Source: Mobula hypostoma
Taxonomy: Eukaryota
NCBI RefSeq assembly: GCF_963921235.1
Contig: NC_086097.1
Span: 71,984,001 to 72,048,000 of the forward strand
DNA: 64,000 nt
Reading direction: 5' to 3'
Every line of letters starts with the position of its first letter. The stretch's first letter is position 1. This document shows, one piece after another, positions 1,788-58,420 of this stretch. Under the pieces are notes generated by a model. That model worked only from the letters and a program-made list of their open reading frames with translations, was not told where the DNA came from and made no database searches. The position numbers were made by a program, and so were the translations under genes.

Positions 1788-3190
1788 TCAGTGTGATGAC
1801 TGGGGCTGAATACCTCCTGCTAGTTCTCTGAAATTTGGCTCATAACTACAGACAGCCAGTCTGAGACAGTCTGTGAGGTGTAGGGTTGCCAACTGTCCTG
1901 TATTTCCCCCGTTAAGGTAGAGTGTCCTATGAAACCTTTTGTGCTGAAATGCTTCATGCCGAAGAAGCAATTACCATTAATTTATATGGAAAAAAAAATT
2001 TGAGCATTCCCAGACCCAGAAAAATAGCCTACCAAATCATACCAAATAACACATAAAACCTAAAATAACAATAACATATAGTAAAAGCAGGAATGATATG
2101 ATAAATACACAGACTATATAAAGTAGAAATAATGAAAATTAAGCCAAAACCGATTCGTGGGGTTAAAATATCGACATGTACATACATGCGCACACAGGTG
2201 CCCGTGCAAAGCTTCATGATCATGGTAGTCTTTCAATGGGTAAATGCAAATGTCCCGGGATTTGATGGCTACTTTTGTCCCTTATTTGGGAGTGAGAAAG
2301 TTGGCAACCCTAGTGAGGTGTCTGTCAGTAAGTCAGCTCCTGTACTTAGATTTAATAATTTTCATCTGTGAAAATGCAAATTCACATAGATCAGTTGACC
2401 CGAAATAGGCACTGACTTTTAGTGCTATGAAACCAACGCGCACACCACGCATTGCTCAGCCCCATCAGTAGTAATTGCCACCAGTTTATGAATGGGGATG
2501 TCATTTTCACGGACATATTTTTTTAAACTCATTGTAAGTATCCTCACCTCTCGTTCTTTCCTTTAATTGTAAAAGAGTGAGGAAGTCCTCCTTTGTTGTA
2601 AAATCCTAGAAAGCCATTCTGACAAATACAACAAGCTGAACTGTTTGCATTACATCCAGGGATTCATCAAACTGTAGTGAGAAATATCCATGTCCTCTGA
2701 CAGTGACTCTACCCTCCTTGTCACTGTTGCAGGGCCAAGCGGTATATTATATATTGCGGTTGTGATGCCGTTTTTGTTTTTAAAGTCATTAAAACAGTCT
2801 CTGCAGTAATGACCTTTGCTTCCTTGAATAAATCGCCATCTGTAAAAGGCTTCTTGTGTTTAGCCAAAAGGTGACTTACAAGAAATGATGCTTCAATAGC
2901 AGACCTATTTTGAGCAGCATGTTTTGTGGAAAATGATTGCTGGGCCTTCAACCCCGATTTCAGTCCCTCAACTTTCCAGGCACAAATTGCGCTATTTGGG
3001 GGGTAGGTGTCTTTAAATTCCTGGTGGTTGGTGTTGAGGTGCCACTCCAGATTCCCTCTTTTAGTCAGTGCTTGTGTTTGGTGGCACAACATAATACACA
3101 CTTGTCTTTCACCAAGGTAAATAGAAATTCCTCTTCCCATTCTGGATGGAATCTATACGTTTTCGCCTTCTTTCGTGGAGCCTCCGCCAT
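1788..3190 (-). pseudogene. Disrupted hAT transposase
   Basis: Starts MAEAPRKKAKTYRFHPEWEEEF at 3190; frameshifted zinc-finger region; YFSLQFDESLD and TTDG catalytic-domain motifs; deletion to C-terminal FGSTDLCEFAFSQMKIIKSKYRS...HLTDCLRLAV; interrupted by a MITE. Confidence 0.88.
1881..2312. mobile_element. Non-autonomous hAT MITE (432 bp) nested in the transposase
   Basis: Perfect 14 bp TIR tagggttgccaact / agttggcaacccta; exact 8 bp TSD gtgaggtg (1873-1880, 2313-2320). Confidence 0.93.
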
Positions 3191-3750
3191 GCTATCAGGA
3201 TATCACGAGCGATTGCCGATTGCGTCACATCTGATCTGGGCCGACATTTACGTGCTGGGTGGCACCTAATTAATTAGCTGGTTTATTTCGGCTTTTTTTT
3301 CTTAAAAACGTGCTGGGTGCATCCTGACTACTGCTGCACCCCTGCATGCTTCGCGGCCCGGAGGTTGGGGACCACTGCCGTATATGGATGTTTGTGACAG
3401 TCTGTACTCTTATCTAATCTGATTGGTCACTTTGATGCAGCACAGGCTACGCTGAATATGCGGTGCATGGTGGGGGAACTACACACATGCGCACTGGGCA
3501 GAAAGAACGGAATTAAACCCCTGCAACCCGGAAACAATCTCTCTTTACAAACAGCTTTTTAGCGAAAATATTGCTATATTACCATTATCCTAATTAGTAT
3601 TACTTTTATAATGCTCACATTACAACAGTATTTGTGTATTTATTTTTGATTTTTCTTCGGGATCTACTGGGAAAGTCTCAAAGATCAACCAGTCGATCGC
3701 GATTGACGGGTTGGCGACCCCTAGTGTAAAGTGAGTTATCCTTTTATACA

Positions 3751-3974
3751 TAAACAACAGGAATTCTGCAGATGCTGGAAATTCAAGCAACACACATCAA
3801 AGTTGCTGGTGAATGCAGCAGGCCAAGCAGCATCTATAGGAAGAGGCGCAGTCGACGTTTCAGGCCGAGACCCTTCGTCCTGACGAAGGGTCTCGGCCTG
3901 AAACGTCGACTGCGCCTCTTCCTATAGATGCTGCTTGGCCTGCTGCATTCACCAGCAACTTTGATGTGTGTTGC
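3751..3974. mobile_element. Penelope-derived fold-back mini-insertion (perfect palindrome)
   Basis: Arms 3786-3879 and 3882-3975 are exact reverse complements (94 bp, 2 nt spacer); 14 bp TSD tatccttttataca (3737-3750, 3975-3988); sequence matches the Penelope terminal repeat seen at about 1080-1212. Confidence 0.93.
3877..3910 (+). ncRNA. Minimal type I hammerhead ribozyme motif (intact core)
   Basis: gtc CTGACGA a ggg tctcgg cct GAAA cGTC gac: CUGANGA and GAAA boxes, short stem II, palindromic ACGU stem III, GUC cleavage triplet, stem I gtc/gac; architecture known for PLE hammerheads; activity not shown. Confidence 0.75.
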
Positions 3975-4269
3975 TATCCTTTTATACACCTTTTCATCTG
4001 CATATGTTGATATGATTCATTTTAAGAGCGATATTGAAAGTAGAAAAATCACTGTAGGCTTGCAGAAAGTAAGAAGAGGTGGAGTAGGGCCGATGGGATT
4101 GTTCAGTCCGTTGGTTTGAATGGTCCTGCTGGGATGAATGTCCACCTATTTTGCAATGCAGAAATAATATCCCTTTCTAAAGGTTTCCCACCCTCTGAAT
4201 GTCTCCCAGAAGCAGTATCTGCAACCACATTAATTTTGCTCTTCCTCTTCAAGCATACAGTTTTACTAG

Positions 4270-6910: not shown

Positions 6911-6980
6911 CACGGGTAATACAACATATTAGGGAACAGGAGCAGAGTCAAAATTTCAGAACAAGAAAAGTGGGAAAACA

Positions 6981-7189
6981 TAAATTCAAGAGATACTGCA
7001 GATGCTGGAAACACATGCAAAATGCTGAAGGAACTCAGCAAGTCAAGCAGCATCTATGAAAAGGAATAATCAGTCGACATTTTGGGTTAAGATGAACTGA
7101 TGAAGAATCTCAGCCCCAAACGTTGACTTTTAATTCTTTTCCAGAGACGCTGTCTGACCAGCCGAGTTCCTCAAGCATTATGTGTATGG
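6981..7189. mobile_element. Older Penelope-derived fold-back mini-insertion
   Basis: Degenerate inverted arms around ctgatgaagaatctcagccccaaacgttgac (decayed hammerhead); exact 14 bp TSD aaagtgggaaaaca (6967-6980, 7190-7203). Confidence 0.85.
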
Positions 7190-10100
7190 AAAGTGGGAAA
7201 ACAAGTGTGCTTTAAGTTTCAGAGATGGAGAAAGTGATGAAATTTCTGCTGCAGGCAAAGCTGTCAAAGTAACCAATACTTACAGTACCAGTATTAAAAT
7301 ACAAAATAGAAAAGCAAAAAATTGAAACTGGAACATTCAGCAACATGTTGAAAAAAAATAACAGGTTACTTGAAATAGTGGAATTCTGTTTTCTGAGTAC
7401 AGACGGAATTTGAGCCTTGTTTCTTGAGCTGATGTTGATCATTGTTTTAACAATGTAGAAGGTCAGACACAGAGAGGTCAGAGTGAGTAGTGAATGGAAA
7501 CTAAAGTGACGGGCAGGTGGAAGTTCAAATAGGGCCTTGTGGATTTTGGAATGGAGTGTCAGTGAAGAGAGCTACAGTCTCCTGGTTGATGTTGGGTATT
7601 AATTGAGTATGATGGAAAATATAGAGGGGGTGACTTTGAATTGCTCTTGCACACTGAGAGTGGACTTGATTAACATTCTTCATTACTTCAACAATTCCAT
7701 GAAGTGTCTGTGTGGAAGGAGGATAGTCTATTTGATTTAATTGTATTGCTTTTATCTGGTGTTGTCACAGAATATTGGTTAAGCCATTTCAGCTAGGGTG
7801 GCAACCACACATTGAGGCTATGTGAGTTCTTCCATAAATCATTCTAATTCATTAAACATCAGTAAGATTGATTTACTGTTCCATCAATTTAACTAATTTA
7901 TTGATTTGTGTATGTTAGGTATTTAGTGTCTATGTTCCCATTAACTCTTATTTCTTTGAGATTCTCTTCTTTTTGCCTGTGCCTGCCACTATCCTTTTGA
8001 ACCATTTTATGAGTAACACTCACCTTTTGATTCCCTCCACTTTCTTTTCAGAATCAGGCTTACGATCACCAAAAAATGTCATGAAATTTGTTCAATGCAA
8101 GGCATAGAAATTACTATCAGATGCAAAATAAATGAAGGTGCAAAAGATTATTGCCCACAGGTCCCAGGGATTCAGAGACTAAATTAGGTGCTGCACTTTC
8201 TGGTTTTGTAAATTAAGTTTGCTTTCAGTCCTTGATTAAGTCCACTTCCCTCCTTTGCCCTTTTGTCCTAATTCTCTTGAATGCATGTGTACCACCAGAA
8301 TTAGGTTGCCAAAGAACATCAGTGATGCTTTCATCTTGTTCAGTAATCAATAGAGACTGGTACCCCTGTAACACTAAAGTATTGTGCAGATGTCCATCCA
8401 AACGTACTTGAACACCAATAAAAGCCGTACTTTGATTGCAGTAATTAACCTAGTGGTTAGAAATACACCTCTATCAAAGACCTTCTAAGCTCTTCTCTGA
8501 ACACTGTGGAAACAGTGTCAGAATTACAAATAATAGTTATGAGTTACAGAACAGAGCATACTTTATCATTCCATGAGCAAGTTCTAAGTATATGATTTAT
8601 ATTGTGAGAAATTTTGGCCAGTTCATTGTTAATAGCATAATTAGAGATACTACCACTACACTCAATTGTGCAGTTAGTCATTTTTAGTTTTGCTATGAAA
8701 TGAAATGTTCAGACTCCAGCTAACCATGGCACAGTACTTAAGACAAGTCTCAACCATTAATTATTATATGTATAAATTAATATATTCATATAGATTGATC
8801 TCACTGAGCTGTTGATTTTTCCCTTCTTGATTTTTCTAGAACATTAATCTTAACTGTCCAGTTCATATGGATGTTACTGTTGCAAGAAAAGCAGAATTTT
8901 GACTTCTGTGTCTCCTGGTAAAGACTAATAAATTCCAATTTTCCCTTCTCTACCTGCAACACTAATGGACATTATAATAGAATTGCACATAGATATTGCT
9001 ACCAGCCAAGGAAGCCAACAAGCATCACAAAGGCTGGTAACAGACCAAATTCAATCATATTTATATGTTTCAGTGCTGATCCCTGGGTGAGATGATGCTG
9101 AGGTAGCAGCATTGGGCTCTAAAATACAGTATCCTGGAGGAGATGGGATTCAAGTTTAATCCTCCACTTCACTGGGTTTTCAATCTTAGTTGTGGTACAA
9201 AGGGGAGGTTGTTAACTAAAGGCCAAGTACTTCTTTGTAGGTGTTTGAGCAAAGACATTTGAAATGGAATCTCCAGCAGGCTACTCCCACTTCAATATCC
9301 AAGTGCTGTCAATGTTAGTGTAATGCCTGGTCTCACAAGGTTGTCAGAAAAAGAGAATTGATCAATTTTGCTACTTGAAGAAATAGTGCATAAACATTAA
9401 TACGTATTTACTTTCTTCCTTCTGCATTCAAGGTTTACTTCTTGGCTTGATAGAATCCTTTGTCATTAATTTTGAAGATTAATAAATTGTAATAAAAATT
9501 CAGATTCACGTCAATGTCAAACGGAGAGTATAATTCTATATTCTGCAGTTATTGCTTACAGAGTGGGATTGCTTGTTGGCAAGGAAATAAATCCTGAGGA
9601 TGTTATGCCTTTAATTCTATACATGCAATTCTGAGAATGCAATGCATAAATTGTTCAAGTGTAATGTAACCGATTGTATAATTATTATGTTCAACCATAT
9701 CAAAACAGATATCCGAGCAGCCTACACCAAAAATTGATCTGTATCCAATTTGCTGCTTGAGTACAGATAATTTTCCATAAAACATTGAAATCATTATTAA
9801 TGCATCAACTGACACTTTAGAACGGATCCTCTGAAACATCCTTAAGCCAGAGTGATTTGTAACTGCTGTATTTTATGCAAAATATATAGCACTCAGCATA
9901 ATGAGCATTTACCATGTACAGGAGGTTCAAAGTAATGCTGTCCTTTTTTGATCAAATCTGGACTGAATAAACTGTAAAATTGAAGTTGGACTAGACTAGT
10001 TGGACAACTTGCTGTTTTTCTTATGAAATTTAATTAAACTACAGTAAATGATGTCTGTCCATTTTACAGTTCGAAACTTATTAGAAAAACCATGCAAAAG

Positions 10101-20100: not shown

Positions 20101-20264
20101 GACTATTTCGGATTCCAGTTTAGTCCATTAATATTGAATATGTATTTAGTGAACTTATCATTTGAGATTATATGAGGGAAATCTTCAAAATATTCAGTAG
20201 AGACAGGGAAGAATAAGTGTTTCAATTTTCGATGGTTTACCTGATGGAATATCATAAATATTGC

Positions 20265-20352
20265 GTTTCCACGGATGCTGCCCGACCTGCTGAATTCCTC
20301 CAGCATGTTGTGAGTGTTGCTTTGACCCCAGCATCTGCAGAGTATTTTGTGT
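20265..20352 (+). mobile_element. 88 bp Penelope tail insertion
   Basis: Family tail gatgctgcccgacctgctg...ccagcatctgcag; exact 13 bp TSD tcataaatattgc (20252-20264, 20353-20365). Confidence 0.85.
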
Positions 20353-20904
20353 TCATAAATATTGCAATATTGATAGCATCATCTGTGATTCAGATATTTT
20401 ACATCAAAACCAGACTTACTCTAACAAATAGTTTTGTGAAATTTTGTTCTATTGGGGGAAAATACTCACCAAAAATTACTTATTCTATGGTATGTTGTGG
20501 TGATGATAAATCTATTATAAAGATTTTGCTTGGTTTCAAGGCCGAAGTCAACTGTTACATCAATGTAATAACAGGCAAATTCAATAGCATGAATGAGGAC
20601 TTCTGTACTAATGAGATGGAAAAACCATTCATTGTTTTCTTTGGAGTACAAGATGTAAGCCTGATTCATAAGGGAGATATTGAATATTATGTAGGGCTTG
20701 AGAGTAAACCAGACACTATTGGCAGGAGGAATGAAAAACGTAAACTTTGGTTGAAGATAACTGGTAGAGGAGCCAGGTGGAAGATCATGAAATATTTCTA
20801 CATGACACTGATGTCTTCAAAAGAGTGATGCAAATAGATTCTGTGATAAATTTCAAAAAAGGAATTAATTGAATATAAAAAAGAAGTGGGTGTAGAATTT
20901 CAGG

Positions 20905-21144: not shown

Positions 21145-22680
21145 GTCATAGATTTATACAGCATAGAACTAGCCTTTTGGCCCAACTTGCCCTTGCCAGC
21201 CAAGGTGCCCATCTCAACTAGCCCCTTTTGCCTGCATTTGGACCACATTTCTTGAAATCTTCCCTATTTATGTACCTGTTTAACTGTCATTTAAACATAG
21301 CAATTGTATCTACTTCTGCCTCTTCCACTGTCACCTTGATCCACATACTTAGCAGTCTCTGTATGAAACAGTTGTCCCAAAGGTCCTCTTTGAATCTCCC
21401 CCCTCTCATTTTAAACCCAGTATACCTTACACTTAAAAAAAACACGGTAACCATTCTAGTGAACGCAGCAGGCCATGCAGCATCTCTAGGAAGAGGTAGA
21501 GTCGACGTTTCGGGCCGAGACCCTTTGTCAGGACTAACTGAAAGAAGAGCTAGTAAGAGATTTGAAAGTGGGAGGGGGGAGGGCGAAGATCCGAAATGAT
21601 AGGAGAAGACAGGAGGGGGAGGGATGGAGCCAAGAGCTGGACAGGTGATTGGCAAAGGGGATATGAGAGGATCGTGGGACAGGAGACCCAGAGAGAAAGA
21701 AAGGGGGAGGGGGGGAGCCCACAGGATGGGCAAGGGGTATGGTGAGAGGAGCAGAGAGAGAAAAAGGAGAGAGAGAAAAAGAATGTGTGTATATAAATAA
21801 ATAATGGATGGGGTACGAGGGGGAGGTGGGGCATTAACGGAAATTAGAGAAGTCAATGTTTATGCCATCAGGTTGGAGGCTACCCAGTCGGAATATAAGG
21901 TGTTGTTCCTCCAACCGGAGTGTGGCTTCATCTTTACAGTAGGGGAGGCCATGGATAGACATATCAGAAAGGGAATGGGACGTAGAATTAAAATGTGTGG
22001 TCACTGGGAGATCCTGCTTTCTCTAGCAGACAGAGCGTAGGTATTCAGCGAAATGATCTCCCACTCTGCATTGGGAATGCGGCCCCTGATGTGGCCTTCT
22101 ATATATCGCCAATATATTCTATACATTCTTTTTCTCTCTCTCCTTTTTTTCCCTCTGTCCCTCTCACTATACCCCTTGCTCATCCTCTGGGCTTCACCCC
22201 TCCCCCTTTTCTTTCTCCCTGGGCCTCCTGTCCCATGATCCTCTCATATCCCTTTTGCCAATCAACTGTCCAGCTCTTGGCTCCATCCCTCCCCCTCCTG
22301 TCTTCTCCTATCGTTTTGGATCCCCCCCTCCCCCTCCCACTTTCAAATCTCTTACTAGCTCTTCTTTCAGCTGGTCCTGACAAAGGGTCTTGGCCCGAAA
22401 CGTCGACTGCACCTCTTCCTAGAGATACTGCCTGGCCTGCTGCATTCACCAGCAACTTTTATGTGTGTTGCTTGAAATTCTAGCATCTGCAGATTTCTTC
22501 GTGTTTACGGTAACCATCCTCCTTATTTATGCCTCTCACGAATTTATATCCCCCTATAAGATCACCCTTCAGACTCCAATGCTCCAGGAAAAAATGGAGC
22601 TTTTTCAGCTGAATGATACCCTTTGTATAGCTGGGTGACCAGAACCGCAAACAATACTGCATGTGCAGTCTCACCAATAT
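21145..22680 (-). mobile_element. CR1 3' fragment split by an inverted Penelope insertion
   Basis: CR1 tail at 21145; FKMRGGRFKEDL and QYCLRFWSP...LKGDLIGGYK relics on either side. Confidence 0.8.
21458..22506. mobile_element. Penelope-like element with large inverted duplication (minus arm about 21458-22075, plus arm about 22105-22506)
   Basis: Two opposed copies of the Penelope 3' region; 14 bp TSD acggtaaccattct / acggtaaccatcct (21444-21457, 22507-22520). Confidence 0.9.
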
Positions 22681-31581: not shown

Positions 31582-34500
31582 TCTTGTGGGTTTAATATTT
31601 CAGTAGAATTTGAGTAATATTGTAAATATATTGTTTGATTAAGCATTCTTTGTTGGTTTAAATAATTCATTAAGGTTATATGTACAAAATACGTGAATGG
31701 CATATGTCATCACTCTGCTGTGTCATAAGTGGATGCCTCACTGAAAGTAAAAATGAAGCACATAAGTTTTCCCAGTCTCCCATTGTTTTCTTCCATTTAG
31801 TTTTATGTTTTGAAGTTACAAAACATAACCGTGGTGATAAGGAAGTTTTAAACAAACCTGAGACGACTACTACATGTTGAAGCGCAGTAAAACATTCGAG
31901 TTAAAAATAAAGCGCAGCACATGGTTTCTTCAGTAAATTACTTAGTCGAATTTTAAAAAGCTAAAAAACAGACAAATACACATGTTCATAAACAGCAAAA
32001 ACTGGTAGCGAATCATAATTTTAAAAAAGTAAAAATGGCTGACTGCATTGAAATGAGAGACGCATTCAATTGTTGAAGAGGTAACTGCATATTGTTTACT
32101 GAGAGGATTGAGCAGTATTTTAAAGCAAATGGAATAGTCAGTGAGCAGCCAGTGCCAATTTTGCTAAGTGCATACAGTTTTCTTCGAAGTTTCATTGCTC
32201 CAACCAAACCAGCCGAAATGAACTTTGCTGATATCATGAAAATGCTGGAGCAGTTAGAACCAAAACCATTGTTGATTGCAGATCATGTTTGGCTTCATAA
32301 TCAAAAGGAGGGGTAGGCCATTTCAGCGTATTTGGCTGAATTGAAGAGGTCTGAGCGTTGGCAGTTCAATGACAGGCTTAATGATGCACTGAGAGATCAT
32401 TTAGTTGGTGGAATCTTACAGGAAAGCATTCAAAAACTGCTCCTAACTGAAGCACAACTTGTATTTAAAAGAACAGTTGAAATACTGTAGCTGTATCAAT
32501 GGAAACAGCAGATAGAGGCACAGTTGAGTTGCGTCAGGAATGAAGGTGAGGTTGAACAAAATTGCAATGACTGAACAGAAATCGGTCTGGCCAAAGAAAT
32601 TATGTTACTGTTGTGGCAGGGGCTCACATACACCAGACCAATGCAGATTTAAAAGTGCAACTTGCAGAAAATGCAACAAAGTAGAACACATACAAAGAGT
32701 GTGTCGGGCAGACAAAAATCAACAGACTGCTCAGGGAAGAGAAAAAGATAAAAAGTTAAGTTATAGTTTCAAAAGAACACTAATCTGCATGCTGTTGATG
32801 AAAAATCTGACAATGAAGACAATGTTACGAGATTTAACATGTGAAAACTAACAAGAGACAAGCAATATGGTCTGCACCAGAAGTGAACAGCAAACTAATT
32901 GAAATGGAATTGGACACTGGCTTGGCTGTTTCAGTCATTCCACAAAATGTGTTTCAACAACATTTCAAAGATACTGAAATAAAGCCTGCAGATATCCAAC
33001 TAAGAACTTATATACTGGAGAAAAGGTAAATCCTGTGGGAATGACAATCAAATAACAACAAGCCACATTGGGCTTGTATGTGGTTAAAAACAGGAGGTCC
33101 AGAATTTTGAGTCCATGACTGGCTGTGACAACGACCGCTTGATTGGCAATCCATCCACCATTTGCATGCCACATCCCTTGCAATAAAGTTATCTGAAAGC
33201 AAATTAAGAAAGGAACTGAATGATGCCACAGCAGTGATCAAGGATGACATTGGAAAACACAAACATATTGAAGATAAAATAGTGTTAAATGAAAATGCCC
33301 CACTGAAGTATTGCAATGCCCATCCAGTTCCTTTTACCAAACATGATAAAGTAGCCAGTGACCTAGATTATATGGAGGCTGAAAGAACTCTTTCCAAGTT
33401 TGAGTGGAGCCCATAGGCATTGCCAGTGGTCTCGGTAGACAAGTAGAATGGGTCTGTCAGACTCTGTTGTGATTTTAAAGGGAACATAAAATAAGTGCTG
33501 AAAATAGATCAATACCCTCTGCCCAAGTTAGGAGATACCTTTGCAAAACCTTTCAGAAGGAAAACACTACAGCAAAGTAGACTAAGCTGAGGCCTACCTA
33601 CAGATGGAGATGGAAGAAAAGTCCAAGGTGTTTCTTACCATGAACACCCACAAAGGACTTTATCACTATAATAGGCTTAGGTTTGGGGTAGCATCTGCAC
33701 CTGCACGCTGGCAGAAAGCGATGGACCAGGTGCTATAAAGCTGTCCAGCCACTCAGTGTTACCTGGATGATATAATTGTTACGAATAAGGATAACAAGGA
33801 ACTTCTCCAAAATCTCAAGACAGTGTTAAAAAGATTAGAAGATTATGCACTCAGAGGACAACATGTGATAAGTGTGAATTCTTTAAACCAAGCATCAATT
33901 ACTGTGGCCAAACCATTGACGCTCAAGTATTACACAAGTGCGCTGAGAAAATTCAAACAGTGGTGAATGATCCAATGCCAAAGGATGTGTCACAGTTGCA
34001 GTCCTTTTAGGGTTTGTCAATTACTGTAACGATTTCTGCCAAACCTGGCTACTCTGCTCCAGCCCTTGAACTCATTACTACAGATCGTGAAGAAATGGTA
34101 ATGTACAGAGCAGTGTGAAGTGGCTTTCCAAAAGGCAACGTAAATAGTGACATCAGACACTGCACTTACACATTATGATCCACATCATCTAGTGAAGCTT
34201 GACTGTGATGCCTCACCTTATGGTATAGGTATTGTCATGTCACATGTGATAAGTGATAGGTACTGTCATGTCACATGTGATAAGTGATAGGTACTGTCAT
34301 GTCACATGTGATAAGTGATAGGTACTGTCATGTCACATGTGATAAGTGATAGGAGTGAACACCCCATAGCTTTTGCATCACATTCTCTTACCGTTGCAGC
34401 GAAAAAGTACGCACAGATTGACAGAGGAGCCTTGAGTCTGGTTCGGGGTATAAAATAGTTCAACCAGAACTTGCATGGGAGAGAAGTTACGCTCATTACT

Positions 34501-44315: not shown

Positions 44316-45654
44316 CTGAAAGCAGGTACCAACAGGCTCAAAGACATTTTCTACTCCACTTCCCTCGTACAATGGTTTGGATTTGCAACCTCACGATCTC
44401 CTTCATTATTATTTTGCAACTCATTTATCTGCACTACACATTCTCTGTAGCTGCTACACTTTATTCTTCATTGTTACTATTTTACCTTGTTCTACCTCAA
44501 TTCACTGCATAATTATCTGATCTGTATGAACAGTATGCAAGAAAGATTTTTCATGGCACCATCATACATGTGTCAATAATAAACCAGTTTCAGTTCTAAA
44601 CTAATTCCAGCTCCATTTCAATAGATTATGCCCTTTCATTTTTGTTTCCTTTGCATGCTGCCAACACCAAGCTCATTTTCCCCCTTACTTTGACCATTCA
44701 GAAGTTTCCTTTCTATCTGTGGCACTCTTCCCTTTCTTTCAAATCTCTTCCAAAGACACCAATGTGCTCAAATGCCAGAAATGTCTTTGTAACATGGACA
44801 TAATGGACCAAATGGCCTCTTTCTCTTCTGTAACTTACTATGGTTCTCTCATTCTGCTCTGACTCCTTTTCCATTGTTCAGGGCCCAAGGCATTCTGCAC
44901 AAGAGAAGTTTTATCTGTGCTTTTTCAATTAAGTCCACTGAATTTATGCAACCCTTCTCTCAAATTGCAGGATCAAATACAGACTAGATGAGCACTTTGT
45001 GGATGTCCTCTGGCCCACAGCTGACAATCATATTCCTTAACTTCCCTTCAGCTGTTACTGCAATCCTTTATCTCACTGTCTTCACCTTCTACAATCTTAT
45101 CATGCAATTCTGCATCGGCCTGAAGAGCAGATCCTCCTTCTGACTTGGGGCATGGCAGCATTTACAAATCAACTTTGTATTCAACAGTAGGATTGGATAA
45201 TAAATAGTTTGTTTGCCTTTGTTCCTGTCCCAGATCCATCATTTGTTTTTCTACTTGTCCCATAACTCAGCCCATTACATTGCATTCCACCCTTTCCTTT
45301 ATATTCCTTCCTTTCATCCCACCATCACCTACTTTGCCTTAAAACTTATTTATGTCCAACTCCATTCTCGTTTTAATGAAAAGTCACCTTCTGAAACATT
45401 AACTCAGCTTCTCTCTCAACCAATTCTGATGACAAACAATATTGGTTATCAGTTGGAAGTGGGTGGATGACTGGTGGATGATTAGGAAATGTGTGAGTTA
45501 AAAATCCTTTTAAAAAGTCCATCATATATTTGATAAACAGGATCCTAATACCTTGCATCTTTCTACGTTACATTTGTATCAACATGTCATCTTAATTTAA
45601 TTAAACATAACAAAACCTACTATTAAAGAGTTTATGATTGGTGTAACAGTGGTA

Positions 45655-46963
45655 AATTCACTTCATCCATTTCTGACACCTCCCTCTCCTTTTTCGAACT
45701 GTCTTTCTCCATCTCTGGAAACAAATTGTCTTAAAAACCTACCTAACATCTTTTAGGAACATACCAATTCCCACGGTTATCTTAACTATTTTTTTTCCAC
45801 CCTATATCCTGTAAAATGTTATTCCCTTTTCTCATTTCCTTCGCCTCCACCCCATCTGTTCTAGGATCTGGATTTCATTTCCAGAACATCAGATATGTCC
45901 TCCTTCTTCGAAGAGTGGAGTTTCCCTTCCTCCACAATTGATATAGCCCTCATCCGCATCCCCTCCATTTCCCGTCCACCCACGTTCACCCCACCTTCCT
46001 GATGCCTTACAGTGATAGTTCCTTTTGCCCTTACCTACTACCTCAACAGTCTCCACATCAAGCCCTTCATCCTTCACAATTTCAGCCACCTCCAAAAGGA
46101 TCCTACCACTACACAGATCTTTACTCCCCCGCTCTGTTTTCCACAGGGATTGCTCCCTCCATGATTCTTTTGTCCATTCGACCCTCCCCACTAATCTCCT
46201 TCCAGCACTTATCCCTGCAAGTGGCCTACACCTGTGCATTCACCTCTTCCCTCACCTCCATTCAGGGACCCAAGCAGTCCTTCCAGGTGAGGCAACACCT
46301 CACCTGTGAATCTGCTGGGGTCGTTTCTTGTCTCCAATCCTCCTGCTGCAGCCTCCTCTACATTGGTGAGATCCATTGTAAACTGGGGAGACCACTTCAC
46401 TGCGCACTCTGCACCATCTGCCCCAAGTGGAACTTCCCAATGACCAAACATTTTGGCTCTGATTCTCATTCCTATTCTGACGTGTCTGTCTATAGCCACC
46501 TCTTGTGCCAAGATGATGCTACCCTCAGCGTGGCGGAGCAGCACCTTATATTCTGTCTGGGTAATCTCCAACCTGATGGCATGAATATCGATTTCTCCTT
46601 CCATTTAAAAAAAACTGTTTCTCTCCCCCCTCGTCTCTTCTTCTATTTCCCACTCTGGCCTTTCACCTTTTTTTACCTGCCCATCACTCCCCCAGGGTCC
46701 CCACTTTCTTGCCCTTCTCCTATGTTCCACACTTCTCTCCTATCAGATTTCTTCTACCCCAGCCCTTTACATTTCCCACGCAACTTGATTTACCTATCAC
46801 CTTCTAGCTACCCTCCTTCCCGTCGCCCCACCTTTTTATTCTGTCATCTTCCCCCTTTCTTTTCAGTCCTGAAGAAGGATTTTGGTTCAAAATGTCAACT
46901 GCTTATTCATTTCCAAAGATGCTGCCTGATCTGTTGAGTTCCTCTGGTATTAGTGTGTGTTGC
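45655..46963 (+). mobile_element. Penelope-like element, RT C-terminus plus GIY-YIG plus tail
   Basis: IQGPKQSFQVRQHLTCESAGVV...CSLLYIGE...EQHLIFCLGNLQPDGMNI; decayed hammerhead at about 46864-46900. Confidence 0.9.
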
Positions 46964-49589: not shown

Positions 49590-49805
49590 TAAATGCTAGA
49601 AATACTCAGCAGGTCAGCCAGTGTATGTGGAGAAAGAAGATGTTAATGCTCCTGATTAATGAACTTTCAACAGCATTCCGAAGATTCTCCCTTCTGCCTC
49701 CTTCCTTTCCAGTCCTGATGAAGTGCCTCAGCCTGAAGCATTGCCTGCTTATTTCTCTCCGTAAACGCTGCCTGAACCCGTTGAGTTTCTCAGCATTTCA
49801 TTTGT
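49590..49805. mobile_element. Decayed Penelope fold-back insertion with hammerhead remnant
   Basis: aaatgctagaaatactcagcagg ... gttgagtttctcagcattt inverted arms; cagtcctgatga...tgaagc at about 49710-49740. Confidence 0.6.
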
Positions 49806-53479: not shown

Positions 53480-54214
53480 GTTTTCGGAATGGGAATGGGA
53501 AGTGGAATTGAAATAGATGCCCACTGGGAGATCCCGCTTTTCTAGTGGACGCAGCATAAGTGTTCGGTGAACCATCTCCCAATCTACATTGGGTTCTTAT
53601 TGATATAGAGGAGGCCACACCATGAGCATTGAATCTCCCAATGGCCACCCATTTTAATTCTCAGTCTCATTCCAATATGTCTATCTATGACCTTCTCCAC
53701 TGTCGTAATGAGGCCGCACTTAGGCTGGAAGAAAAACACTTTATATTCCGTTTGGGTAGCCTCTAACTTGATAGCATGAAAGCAATCTCTTGAACTTCCA
53801 GTAATGCCACCCCCCTCACCTTTCCCATTCCCTTTTTCCTCTCGCATTTTATCTCCTTGCCTGCTCATCGCCTTCCTCTGGTGCTCCTCCCCTTTCTCGT
53901 TCTTCCATAGTCTTTTGTCCTCTCCTATCAGACTGCCCCTTCTCCAGCCCTGTATCTCTTTCACCAATCAAATTCCCAGCTCTTTACTTCACCCTTCTCC
54001 TTCTGGTTTCACCTATCACATTGTGTTTCTCCCTCCCCCCAACCCCCACCTTTTAACTCTACCCCTCATCTTTTTCTCTCCAGTCCTGCTGAAGGGTCTC
54101 GGCCTGAAAAGTCGACTGTATTCTTTTCCATAGATGCTGCCTGGCCTGCTGAGTTCCTCCAGCATTTCGTGCTTGCTGCTTGGATTTCCAGCATCTGCAG
54201 ATTTTCTCATGTTT
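53480..54214 (+). mobile_element. Penelope-like 3' fragment with inverted 5' segment
   Basis: 53480-53630 is minus-strand GIY-YIG (CSWCGLLYIN); 53631-54214 is the plus-strand continuation with mutated hammerhead (54081-54118) and tail. Confidence 0.85.
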
Positions 54215-54690
54215 TTGAACTCCAGCTTGTTTGATAACTTTTATACCATAACTTTCCTGCTCTTATATTTTATGACTCATTAGTGACACTCAGGAGAGAA
54301 ATTGTTACATTTCATATCTGATCAAAGATCATTAACCTTGAATAATGAGAGTTGGTATTGAGGTAGCATGGTGACAAAGGGCTCCACTGACCAATAAATC
54401 AACCAAGCTTGTCATCACGTGTCCATAGATGATGACATATCTATCTGTGATGGCAACAATGCTATGTGCCTTCTTCAGCATTTGATCTACCTGTGTTGCC
54501 ATTTTCAGGGATCTTTGGACCTGCCCTCTCTTCCTCAATACTTCCTATGGTCATACTGTCAACATGTACTGTACGTTCTATCTTTATTAATTCACCTAAA
54601 GTGATCACCTCATTCTTACCATCTACCATTGCACTGCCCATCTTATAAACTGACCAATATCCATTAGCCTAAGATTAACTTCCATGCTAT

Positions 54691-55543: not shown

Positions 55544-58420
55544 CTGGTGAAGGCCAGATCGATGACACCACTATCGCCAACACTGGTTCCAATAATCCCT
55601 GGCAGATTCCAGAACCTGAATTCCACCGCCGTCAATGCCGGTTCCAAAGACCTCGGACAACTTCAGCCTGTTAATTTCATGGCCTCTAACTCTGGCTCCA
55701 GCCTGGACCTTGACCACCAGCACCTCCAGTCTGAGACTTTACACATTGCCGTCAGACCCCCAGTCTCTCTTTACACCAGCACCACTCTCCAGCCCTGTGT
55801 CTCTCAGGTGCCATTGTCAGCTCTTGGGTCCTTGGAGCCTCCATCTTCCTCCCATCTCACCTTCCCTGAACACCCCGATCCTCCACTCCCCTCTGGCACC
55901 ACTAACTCCCTTCCCCCTTCTGATCCCAGCTCTACTCTTTTCTGTGTCTTCTCAATTCCCTCCAATCTTCACCTCTCTGAGGCAAATCGTTCTGTCCTCA
56001 GTAAAGCCTCACCTTTGCCTCCCTTTGCCCACACCGCAGCGTGTTCTGCACCCACAACGAGGTTGAGCTCTTCTTTCATCAACTCCTTCTCTAAGCCCAT
56101 TCCTTTGGCAAGGATTCCATACCCTGAGCTCATAATCCCTTTTCCCATCTTCAACCCTTCTCTTCTTCTTGGACACCCCATTTTGGTTCTCTGCCTGTTG
56201 TAGATCTTTTCATTTCGAATTGCTTCAGCACTCCTTGCTCCTTCTTGAACCATCCCCCTCTGAACACACTGCCCTCCACTCTCTCCACACCAATCCCAAC
56301 CTTACCATCAAACCCACAGACAAAGGTGGTGCTGTTGTAATGTGGCGCACTGATCTCTACCTTGCTGAAGCCAGGCAGCAAACTCATACCTACCCCTTGA
56401 AGAGCATCAGGAAACTATCTCAGACACCATCAGTGATGCCAGCCACTCTGGAGAACTCCCATCCAATGCCACCAGACGCATAGTTCCCTTACGTCACACT
56501 GCTTGCTTCTACTTCCTACTTAAGATCTACAAACCTGCCCGGTCCTGCCCCACTGAACTCCTTGCCAGATCTCAATTCCATTCATTCCTCCTTGGTTCAG
56601 TCCCCTTCCCACCTACATCCGTGACACTTCTCATGCCCTCAATCTCCTCAGTAACTTTAAGTTCCCTGGTCCTGACCACTTCATCTTTACCATGGATAGT
56701 CAGTCCTTATACACTTCTATCCCACAGCAAGAATTCTTCAAGGTTCTCTGCTTCTCTCTTGATAAAAGAACCAACCAATCCCCCTCCACCACCATCCTCC
56801 ATCATCTGGTACTCACCCTGAACAATTATTCCCTCAGCTCCAACCACTTTCTCCAAACTCAAGGGGTAGCCATGGGCACTGGCACGGGCCCCAGCTGTGC
56901 CTGACTCTTCGTTGGCTGTGCAGAAAAGTCCATGTTTGAAGCTTTCCCAGTGCTGGCTCGAAGGGCTGAATGGCTACTCCTGCACCTATTGTCTATTGTC
57001 TTTAAAACTTCACTGAACACTGTATTGGTGCTGCTTCATGCGCCCATTCTGAGCTTGTCAATTTTACCTGCTTTGCCTCTAACTTCTACCCTGCCTCTAA
57101 GTTCACTTGGTCCATCTTTGACACCTCCCTCCCCTTTCTTGATCTCTTTGCCTCCACCTCTGGAGACAAACTGTCAGCCAACATCTGTTATAAACCACCT
57201 GATTCCCACAGTTATTTCAACTATACCTCTTCACACCTTATCTCCTATAAAACTGCTATTCCTTTTTCTCTGTTTCTTTCACTCCCCTGTATCTGTTCCC
57301 AGGATGTGGCTTTCCCTTCCAGAACATCAGAGATGTCCTCCTTCTTCAAAGGACAGGTTTTCCCTCCCTACACTATTAATGCAGCCCTCACCTGCAGCTC
57401 CTCCATTTCCTGTACATCTGCACTCACCCCATCTTCCTGCCACCTTAATAGCAATAGAGTTCCTCGAGTCCTAACCTACAACCCCAGCAGCCTCCATGTC
57501 CAACACATTTTACTCCGCAACTTCCAACATCTCCAAAGGGATCTTACCACTAAAAATATCTTTACCTCCCCCCCTCCATTTTCAGTAGGGATCACTCCCT
57601 CCATGTTTCCCTTGTCCATTTGTTCCTCCCCATTAATCTCCCTCCTAGCATTTATCCTTACAAGCAGCCTGAGTGCTTCACCTGCCCCTACACCTCCATT
57701 CAGGACCCCAAGCAGTCCTTCCAGGTGAGACATCACGTGAATTTGCTGAGGTCCTTTATTGTGTCTGGTGCTCCTGATGTGGTCTCCTGTACATTGGTGA
57801 GACCCATCGTAAATTGGGAGAACACTTCATCGAGCACCCCCGCAGCATCCACCACAAGTGGGTCTTCTCAGTGGCCAAACAATTTAATTTTGATTCCCAT
57901 TCCCGTCCTGATGTGTCGATCCTTGGCCTCTTGTATCAAGATGAGGCCACCCTCAGGGCAGAAGAGCAACATCTTGTATTTTGTCTGGGTATCCTCCAAC
58001 CTGATGGCATGAATATCAATTGCACCTTCTGGTAAAAAAAAATTACTCCACCCCCTCCTCTATTCCCCACTCTTACCTTTTACTTTTTCTCACCTGCATA
58101 TCACTACCCTCAGGCCCCCTCCTCCTTCCCTTTCTCCTATGGTCCACTCTCCTCTCCCGTCAGATTCCTTCTTCTCCAGACCTTGACCTTTTGCATCCAC
58201 CTGGCTTCACTTATCACCTTCCAGCTTGCCTCTTTACCCTCCCCCCCCCGCGATTTGATTATTCATCTTCCCACTCTTCTCAGTCCTGAAGAAGGGTCTC
58301 AGCCCGAAATGTCGAATGTTTATTCCTGTCCATAGATGCTGCCTGACCTGCTCAGATCCTCCAGCATTTTGTATGTGTTGCTTTGGATTTCCAGCATCTG
58401 CAGACTTTCTGGTGTTTATG
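55544..58420 (+). mobile_element. Penelope-like element, 2.9 kb (RT plus GIY-YIG plus terminal repeat), decayed
   Basis: TIKPTDKGGAVV, FTMDSQSLYTSIP, GVAMGTG, CGLLYIGET, EEQHLVFCLGILQPDGMNI; 14 bp TSD atttatcttcagga/atatatcgtcagga (55530-55543, 58421-58434). Confidence 0.92.
58281..58318 (+). ncRNA. Minimal hammerhead ribozyme motif, near intact
   Basis: cagtc CTGAAGA a ggg tctcag ccc GAAA tGTC gaatg; one stem I mismatch and stem III C>T. Confidence 0.6.

What the first reader, a model, noticed from the sequence alone, without database searches (positions are those of the whole stretch)
3737..3988. Perfect 190 bp palindrome folded exactly at a hammerhead ribozyme, with a 14 bp TSD
Seen: two mismatch-free 94 bp arms (3786-3879, 3882-3975) with a 2 nt spacer. 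The symmetry axis (gtc-ct-gac) lies at the start of the CUGACGA catalytic box, so only the plus strand keeps a complete core. The 224 bp insert has no coding sequence and an exact 14 bp TSD. Known: Penelope-like elements carry minimal hammerheads in their terminal repeats and often insert with inverted ends. Inference: a very recent (or gene-converted) fold-back product of reverse transcription that stopped at the ribozyme. If transcribed it gives a 94 bp perfect dsRNA (Dicer/ADAR substrate) that would also sequester the ribozyme, so it is a possible self-made silencing trigger or a mobile non-autonomous hairpin unit.
Basis: partly seen in the sequence, partly recalled or inferred. Interest (0 to 1): 0.75.

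Follow-up and report, generated by a model that had tools for sequence, protein, structure and literature searches.

The report
Young mirror-image Penelope retroelement stub
This perfect 190-base DNA palindrome is real, but it is a very short mirror-image insertion of an abundant Penelope-type jumping gene, a layout already described for that class; it was likely built once, on landing, from two short DNA copies of the element's RNA, and its ribozyme motif is damaged and predicted to be locked in the hairpin.

Summary
Observation confirmed: 94-bp mismatch-free arms, CT spacer, exact 14-bp TSD. The insert is the last ~134 nt of an abundant Penelope-like element (PLE) laid head-to-head: the left arm carries a 35-nt 'tail' that the right arm lacks. 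Inverted copy + one-sided tail + TSD is the published PLE signature (PMC3846280, PMC8557442). Two more such pairs with their own TSDs lie in this window (6967-7203, 21444-22517). The right arm is missing at this site in contigs of a relative with flanks 1.4% apart, so it is likely young. The axis lies 27 nt 5' of the predicted ribozyme cut, at a natural GTC/GAC microhomology: copying went through an uncut ribozyme, it did not stop at it. Centre-crossing contigs show varied junctions, which points to independent events, not one replicating hairpin. Best model: both ends of a staggered cut primed short cDNAs that ran off near the RNA 5' end and annealed by GTC/GAC (inferred). The ribozyme is predicted inactive. 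Transcription and small RNAs were not testable. The scan has reported this layout before on other DNA, in this genome too. New member of a known kind; interest 0.3.

The parts
3737..3750 (.). Left copy of the 14-bp target site duplication (79% AT)
3751..3785 (-). 35-nt PLE 'tail', present on the left arm only
   Evidence: aligns with the 3' ends of tailed family copies such as 22473-22507
3786..3879 (-). Left arm: element 3' end in reverse, ending in GTC; its hammerhead core is broken at C3-U4
3877..3884 (+). Junction GTC-CT-GAC: natural element sequence, 3-bp microhomology, 2-nt spacer, no added bases
3882..3975 (+). Right arm: forward copy (from 3877) that ends at the tail-less 3' site
   Evidence: the copy at 45653-46963 ends at the same site
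3877..3912 (+). Minimal type I hammerhead: helix I 5' strand 3877-3879, core 3880-3886, extra A 3887, helix II 3888-3899, GAAAC 3900-3904, GUC 3905-3907, predicted cut 3907/3908
   Evidence: manual mapping against PMC4209133; no Rfam match
3975..3988 (.). Right copy of the target site duplication
   Evidence: contigs of organism B align from exactly 3975
6967..7203 (.). Older sister: 14-bp TSD, tailed reverse arm, tail-less forward arm starting at the CTGATGA box; arms 72% alike (60 of 83)
21444..22517 (.). Long head-to-head pair of the same family: 11-bp TSD, reverse arm ~620 nt lacking the last 54 nt, tailed forward arm ~395 nt; arms 90% alike (308 of 342); junction far from the ribozyme
56405..58420 (+). 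Decayed long family copy: RT-like piece (56557-56901), GIY-YIG-like piece (57778-58032), then hammerhead and tail

Best explanation
The insert is a 224-bp head-to-head stub of a Penelope-like retroelement's terminal repeat, likely a dead end, and likely made in one integration event in which both ends of a 14-nt staggered cut primed reverse transcription. Shown: TSD, two arms of the element's 3' end, a 35-nt tail on one arm only, a junction at the natural GTC-CT-GAC with no added bases, and two sister pairs in the window. Inferred steps: (1) the element's GIY-YIG endonuclease nicked both strands 14 nt apart; (2) the left 3'-OH primed cDNA at the outer (tailed) start site and the right 3'-OH at the inner (tail-less) site; (3) both cDNAs copied through the uncut hammerhead and ended near its 5' edge, probably because the RNA begins there (uninverted copies read TCAGT just upstream, an initiator-like or splice-acceptor-like word); (4) the two cDNA ends annealed by GTC/GAC, the tailed one lost its last few bases, and repair filled both gaps. 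The arms are identical because the event is young and both were copied from the same source. The ribozyme is predicted inactive; the hairpin has no shown function.
For: Layout equals the published PLE insertion: inverted 5'-truncated copy, 30-40-bp tail at one end, TSD (PMC3846280 passages; PMC8557442 passages). A purified PLE protein cleaves and extends both target strands, starts RT at two sites that bound the tail, is predicted to be a dimer, and uses uncut RNA as its main substrate (PMC11167929 main text). Parent identity: family copies carry RT-like and downstream GIY-YIG-like pieces (atlas 0.93 each). Of 9 copy ends tested, 4 gave an exact TSD of 11-14 bp; 3 of these 4 are head-to-head pairs with one tailed and one shorter arm. 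Strand logic: the antisense strand that runs through the axis (GTC-AG-GAC) is the tail-less one, so its self-copy could not hold the tail. Independent origins: 8 of the 8 longest X1 pieces cross the axis, all with 1-4 gaps, depths 7-49 against 7.65 for the unique flank; 2 of 8 in X6 (organism B) cross it without gaps, one on a 449-nt contig at about single-copy depth. Youth: organism B contigs start at 3975 with 62 letters that do not fit the arm, flank 5 differences in 355; arm divergence under 3.1%. 5' ends: 12 of 15 joints shown land at 3877-3885, and 2 tandem joints restart at A-GTCC.
Against: Twin priming is inferred from end structure only. In vitro, RT start sites did not differ between strands (PMC11167929), so nothing there forces one long and one short arm. 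The pile-up of ends at the ribozyme's 5' edge is not measured without bias: joint tables show 15 of 461 rows and favour conserved stretches, and the query has no sequence upstream of 3877. One of the 3 TSD-bounded pairs (21444-22517) has its junction hundreds of bases away, and a very old probable pair at 49590-49800 starts at least 30 nt upstream. GTC/GAC is 1 of 12 microhomologies of 3 nt or more in about 60 nt, so it does not itself pick the site. Pfam found nothing in 10 of 10 stop-free pieces. No centre-crossing contig clearly meets the tool's 31-letter rule, none of the 8 X1 pieces is the exact junction, and fold-back chimeras of a library could add to them. The empty site in B was not read letter by letter.
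Confidence: 0.62

Rival explanations
1. Self-primed fold-back: one antisense strand (cDNA or antisense RNA) ended at GTC-AG-GAC, folded on itself and was copied back; one end was then trimmed by 35 nt during resolution. This is the published reading of PLE junction palindromes.
For: PMC3846280 Discussion reads head-to-head palindromes as self-priming on an antisense template; PMC8557442 ascribes the tail to endonuclease resolution. It gives identical arms and a tiny loop directly. The 21.4-kb pair has a small local fold-back at its junction.
Against: The strand that runs through the axis is the tail-less one, so the copy is longer than its template unless a cut is added; a 3-bp stem with a 2-nt loop is weak (pair 3879-3882 has probability 0.0 in the RNA fold); the tail matches two RT start sites in vitro; a free hairpin must still be joined to both target ends with a 14-bp TSD.
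Confidence: 0.17
2. A mobile non-autonomous hairpin unit (MITE-like or retrozyme-like) with fixed ends that copies itself.
For: Sister at 6967-7203 has nearly the same size and layout; some centre variants reach depth 21-49, several times the unique flank; the same register occurs in organism B.
Against: Junctions differ by 1-4 nt among 8 of 8 listed X1 pieces; the sister belongs to another subfamily and has another junction; TSDs vary (11, 13, 14, 14 bp); arms are unequal at the ends; no head-to-tail repeats; in a transcript the arms would be fully paired.
Confidence: 0.07
3. RT stalled at the folded ribozyme or ran off at its cut.
For: The axis does fall at the motif; one X1 contig (depth 47.8) has both arms starting at 3908, the first base after the predicted cut, so cut templates may exist.
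Against: For this insert the arms pass 26-31 nt beyond the cut and over the whole motif; a structural stall would be expected at the 3' edge near 3912 (inference).
Confidence: 0.05
4. A longer, imperfect inverted insertion was later shortened at its centre and made perfect by template switching or gene conversion.
For: Long inverted pairs exist (21444-22517); conversion between arms is general knowledge (recalled).
Against: The site lacks the arm in a relative 1.4% apart, leaving little time; older pairs in the window have diverged arms (72%, 90%), so conversion is not keeping them perfect.
Confidence: 0.05
5. Assembly or library artefact (fold-back chimera).
For: Exact centre not seen among the 8 longest X1 pieces; no listed piece spans the whole insert.
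Against: Exact 14-bp TSD on both sides, a 35-nt one-sided tail as the biology predicts, right junction in contigs of 2 runs with 0 differences, and aged sisters with diverged arms.
Confidence: 0.04

Closest known systems
Insertions of endonuclease-bearing Penelope-like elements with inverted pLTR, tail and TSD (Pen2a_Av and relatives, PMC3846280; PMC8557442 Fig. 2)
   Same: Head-to-head inverted 5'-truncated copy, 30-40-bp tail on one end (35 here), TSD, palindrome at the inverted junction, hammerhead in the terminal repeat.
   Different: Both copies are cut to about 100-134 nt, so the whole insert is a near-perfect palindrome with no ORF; TSD 14 bp against 8-10 bp in the rotifer examples.
Minimal hammerheads of metazoan PLEs (Cervera and de la Pena 2014, PMC4209133)
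   Same: Full core, extra base between 9 and 10.1, palindromic 15.2-16.2, no helix III.
   Different: Helix I is 3 bp (4-5 typical), 10.1-11.1 is G-U, no same-strand partner for the dimer, and the motif is paired to its own antisense copy.
Poseidon of Anolis (PAc) in vitro (PMC11167929)
   Same: Two 3' end points that bound a tail, about 90-125 nt downstream of the hammerhead core; AT-rich target; uncut RNA copied.
   Different: The paper stops before second-strand joining and does not describe palindromic stubs in the main text read; clade of this family was not determined.
Non-LTR retrozymes (bioRxiv 10.64898/2026.07.22.740005)
   Same: Non-coding, type I hammerhead, derived from PLE pLTRs.
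   Different: Retrozymes are head-to-tail repeats with at least two hammerheads on one strand; this is head-to-head with one core.
Twin priming of LINE-1 (recalled, no call)
   Same: Both target ends prime cDNA, and the two are joined by microhomology inside a TSD.
   Different: In LINE-1 the two primers copy different parts of one RNA; here both arms copy the same stretch.

Membership tests
EN+ Penelope-like element insertion | Parent encodes RT followed by a C-terminal GIY-YIG endonuclease | tested here: inconclusive
   Atlas: RT-like piece scores 0.93 (one cluster 19% RVT_1), downstream piece 0.93 with GIY-YIG clusters (15-26% of members), in the right order; Pfam 0 hits in 10 of 10 pieces. 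A strong lead, not a profile match.
EN+ Penelope-like element insertion | Inverted 5'-truncated copy adjacent at the 5' end (head-to-head) | tested here: met
   definition in PMC8557442
EN+ Penelope-like element insertion | 30-40-bp tail on one end only | tested here: met
   35 nt, 3751-3785
EN+ Penelope-like element insertion | Short variable TSD at an AT-rich target | tested here: met
   14 bp, 79% AT; family TSDs 11-14 bp
EN+ Penelope-like element insertion | Hammerhead motif in the terminal repeat, sense to the ORF | tested here: met
EN+ Penelope-like element insertion | RT groups with a named PLE clade (Penelope/Poseidon, Neptune, Nematis) | not tested
   No reference RTs were fetched and no tree was built.
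Functional minimal hammerhead | Conserved core, extra base after A9, palindromic 15.2-16.2 | tested here: met
   against PMC4209133
Functional minimal hammerhead | Helix I of 4-5 bp and G10.1-C11.1 | tested here: not met
   3 bp and G-U
Functional minimal hammerhead | Second copy on the same strand for the dimeric fold | tested here: not met
   Only 1 intact motif found by the pattern scan of both strands of the window; the partner here is antisense.
Functional minimal hammerhead | Self-cleavage | not testable with these tools
   needs an in vitro assay
Non-LTR retrozyme | Head-to-tail repeats with at least two complete hammerheads | tested here: not met
   definition
MITE (criteria recalled) | Inverted repeats at the very ends, fixed TSD length, uniform copies | tested here: not met
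   35-nt one-sided tail, TSD 11-14 bp, varied junctions

The most novel reading that the evidence does not exclude
These stubs are a genomic record of how Penelope elements make their unexplained inverted ends: a dimeric enzyme primes from both cut strands, one at each of the two RT start sites, and when it loads on the start sites near the RNA's 5' end both cDNAs run off at the transcript start, just before hammerhead helix I, and join by whatever microhomology lies there. The fold points would then map the transcription start, rarer junctions at 3908 would record ribozyme cutting in vivo, and the family would keep seeding the genome with perfect hairpins against itself.
Probability: 0.45. 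Interest if true: 0.58.

Novelty: new member of a known kind. Interest (0 to 1): 0.3.

Why it matters
The single insert is ordinary and likely inert. Its value is as a clean, young example for an open question: how PLEs form tandem and inverted ends is called undefined in PMC8557442, and PMC3846280 explains it by antisense self-priming. The spacer strand and the one-sided tail here fit twin priming with fewer steps, which a genome-wide count and an existing in vitro system could test. Practical point: such stubs look like MITEs or microRNA hairpins (Rfam gives sub-threshold miRNA matches) and can be mis-annotated.

Tried and rejected
No whole genome is held, so no genome-wide count was possible. 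Rfam: 0 matches at gathering scores; 8 sub-threshold matches, microRNA and other hairpin models, rejected as generic. Pfam on stop-free pieces: 0 of 5 and 0 of 5. Metagenome scans for the exact junction and for a family motif: 0 and 0; that collection is not expected to hold this host, so no evidence. No RNA holder listed; in the two runs guessed to be RNA, 0 of 8 and 0 of 8 longest pieces cross the axis: no evidence on expression either way. Earlier findings by sequence and near this place: none. The bacterial promoter and terminator scan does not apply to this host and was set aside. Summed contig depth was not used as a copy number. Literature searches: Penelope+hammerhead+inverted+palindrom, 3 papers; Penelope+stingray+transposable element, 0; Penelope+twin priming+inverted, 2; Penelope+palindrom+shark+retroelement, 3; Penelope-like/head-to-head/self-priming, 15 of 37 listed. 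By title and abstract start none describes such stubs or twin priming in PLEs; the library lacks most subscription papers (Arkhipova 2006, Evgen'ev and Arkhipova 2005 were not seen), so this is not proof of absence. Rejected readings: MITE, retrozyme, microRNA gene, stop at the cut site.

Full report
Observation. The structure is as described. Arms 3786-3879 and 3882-3975 are exact reverse complements (94 nt), the spacer is CT, and 3737-3750 equals 3975-3988 with unlike bases on both sides. The insert is 224 bp. The 14-mer has a chance of 1.8e-8 at a fixed place; the fold beats 200 of 200 shuffles, z -26.9. The left arm continues for 35 nt (3751-3785) that have no partner on the right.

What the sequence is. 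The arms are the 3' end of a repeat with pieces at 11 places in this 64-kb window, 75-89% alike for the main copies. Longer copies continue upstream into decayed coding sequence: at 56557-56901 a piece that the ESM Atlas places among RT-like clusters (0.93; one cluster 19% RVT_1) and, downstream of it at 57778-58032, a piece placed with GIY-YIG clusters (0.93), followed by the hammerhead and the 3' end. Pfam found nothing in 10 of 10 stop-free pieces, so the protein identity is a strong lead and not a profile match. RT followed by GIY-YIG with a hammerhead in the terminal repeat describes endonuclease-bearing Penelope-like elements (PMC8557442, abstract and passages; PMC4209133, parts 1-2 of 4). 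The 35 extra bases align with the ends of other copies and match the 30-40-bp one-sided tail. An inverted 5'-truncated copy, a tail and a TSD together are called the typical Penelope structure, and palindromes at the inverted junction are noted as abundant (PMC3846280, passages and Discussion). The host is not given; earlier notes call it a cartilaginous fish (unchecked), and I recall this repeat from rays.

Recurrence in the window. I tested 9 copy ends for an exact TSD: 4 had one of 11-14 bp, 1 gave a 9-bp match that is probably chance, 4 had none. Of the 4, three are head-to-head pairs: this one; 6967-7203 (14-bp TSD, arms 60 of 83 alike, forward arm starting at the CTGATGA box); and 21444-22517 (11-bp TSD, arms 308 of 342 alike, junction hundreds of bases upstream of the ribozyme). 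The fourth, 20252-20365, is a single tailed stub. In all 3 pairs one arm has the tail and the other stops short (35, about 38, and 54 nt), and the shorter-ended arm is the one that reaches further toward the RNA 5' end; with 3 cases this is only a hint. A very old probable pair at 49590-49800 was seen by eye; its forward arm starts at least 30 nt upstream of the ribozyme.

Reads. Only assembled contigs of public runs were available. In organism A, contigs of two runs of one sample, possibly the window's own source, run from 23-24 letters inside the right arm through the TSD into unique flank without a difference. In organism B, contigs of two runs of one sample align from exactly 3975, the first TSD base, with 5 differences in 355, and their remaining 62 letters do not fit the arm. 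So B lacks the arm at this site; whether those letters are the left flank was not shown. With 0 of 94 arm differences (95% bound 3.1%) this makes the insert young. On the 90 bases around the axis, 8 of the 8 longest pieces listed for X1 cross the centre, each with 1-4 gaps and 0-3 other letters, at depths 7-49 (unique flank 7.65); none is the exact junction. In X6, 2 of 8 cross it without gaps, one on a 449-nt contig at depth 52 (unique flank 44.6). In X9 and X13, 0 of 8 each. Limits: 25,450 further pieces were not shown, none clearly has 31 letters on both sides, depth is no copy number, and library chimeras could contribute. Read with care, fold-backs near this point recur at many loci and in two species, with varied junctions.

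The ribozyme. On the plus strand: helix I 5' strand 3877-3879, C3-A9 3880-3886, extra A 3887, helix II 3888-3899, G12-C15.2 3900-3904, G16.2-C17 3905-3907, cut predicted after 3907. Uninverted copies have an A before GTC and so a longer helix I; here it is 3 bp, and 10.1-11.1 is G-U where PMC4209133 reports a highly conserved G-C. Such minimal motifs did not cleave as monomers and only weakly as dimers, and the partner here is antisense. In a transcript of 3700-4030 the helix I and II pairs have probability 0.0 and forcing the fold costs 61 kcal/mol. The motif is predicted inactive.

Mechanism. RT copies RNA 3' to 5', so it meets the ribozyme at 3912 and a cut template would end at 3908. The arms reach 3882 and 3877: the template was uncut and was copied through the motif. 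This agrees with PMC11167929 (parts 1-2 of 4), where unprocessed RNA is the main substrate, the protein cleaves and extends both target strands, two RT start sites bound the tail, and a dimer is predicted. Each arm, read from its flank inward, is antisense to the element, as a first-strand cDNA primed from that flank would be. The junction GTC-CT-GAC is natural element sequence. The antisense strand that runs through it belongs to the tail-less arm; had it folded back and copied itself, the copy could not carry 35 more bases without a further step. Two cDNAs annealed by GTC/GAC give the observed sequence with no added base. I put this at 0.62 and antisense self-priming with later trimming (PMC3846280) at 0.17. 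Against it: in vitro the start sites did not differ between strands, and no joining step has been shown.

Why the axis lies here. GTC/GAC is 1 of 12 microhomologies of 3 nt or more in about 60 nt, so it does not select the site; it is the first within the motif. Just upstream, uninverted copies read a pyrimidine run then CAGT, which resembles both an initiator and a splice acceptor (consensus words recalled). In Drosophila virilis Penelope an intron ends at the 5' edge of helix I, and the start site lies 46 bp before that intron (PMC2377424 passages). 12 of the 15 joints shown land at 3877-3885 (446 not shown), and two tandem joints restart at A-GTCC, but these tables favour conserved stretches and the query had nothing upstream of 3877. 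Run-off at the RNA 5' end is therefore likely but unproven.

Function. Nothing shows that the site is transcribed. A read-through transcript of either strand would form a 94-bp duplex, a possible Dicer or ADAR substrate by general knowledge; untested. A self-copying unit is unlikely (varied junctions, varied TSDs, unequal ends); it is no retrozyme by the definition in bioRxiv 10.64898/2026.07.22.740005 (part 1 of 5 and passages). No supplementary files of any paper were read; Fig. S2 of PMC11167929 may bear on end positions.

Earlier findings. 16 notes in at least 10 genomes hold all my search words (8 shown), and 8 notes shown for this genome describe the same layout, several with the same twin-priming and RNA-start reading. 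My note of that model was sent in the same turn, before I saw them. They are unchecked AI notes, not independent support; their counts of thousands of stubs could not be tested here.

Verdict. Real, young, and a new member of a known kind. The layout is published; the way it forms is open, and this copy fits twin priming best. Interest 0.3.

Noticed in passing
run X1 contigs laid on window 3836-3925 (table 5c): One contig (depth 47.8) joins 3853 to 3908 through 22 letters of the element's tail end. 3853 mirrors 3908, the first base after the predicted ribozyme cut, so both arms start at the cut. Another joins 3907 (C17) to A-GTCC. These may record ribozyme-cut templates in vivo; single contigs, weak.
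   Followed up: no
window 6967-7203: Older mini-palindrome of another subfamily with the same layout: 14-bp TSD, tailed left arm, forward arm starting at the CTGATGA box, about 4 filler bases.
   Followed up: yes
window 21444-22517: Long head-to-head pair with an 11-bp TSD; its junction (about 22076-22112) holds a short local fold-back of GIY-YIG-region sequence.
   Followed up: partly
window 20252-20365: Single tailed stub of 88 bp with an exact 13-bp TSD and no inverted arm.
   Followed up: partly
window 53484-54217: Family copy with an internal inverted piece (53484-53620) before the forward part; no convincing TSD found.
   Followed up: partly
window 49590-49800: Very old probable head-to-head pair, seen by eye; forward arm includes at least 30 nt upstream of the ribozyme.
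   Followed up: no
window 3914 (table 3): The insert's G at this place makes up about 30% of summed depth in organism A but 2-3% in organism B, which suggests a subfamily that expanded in A after the split.
   Followed up: no
window 2724-3730: The insert lies 12 bp beyond two adjoining repeats that look like hAT (Charlie-type) DNA transposon remnants (recalled likeness; transposase-like frame at 2724-3152 on the minus strand).
   Followed up: no
window 34194-34379: Tandem array of a 31-bp unit, about 4-5 copies, the inner ones 98-100% alike.
   Followed up: no
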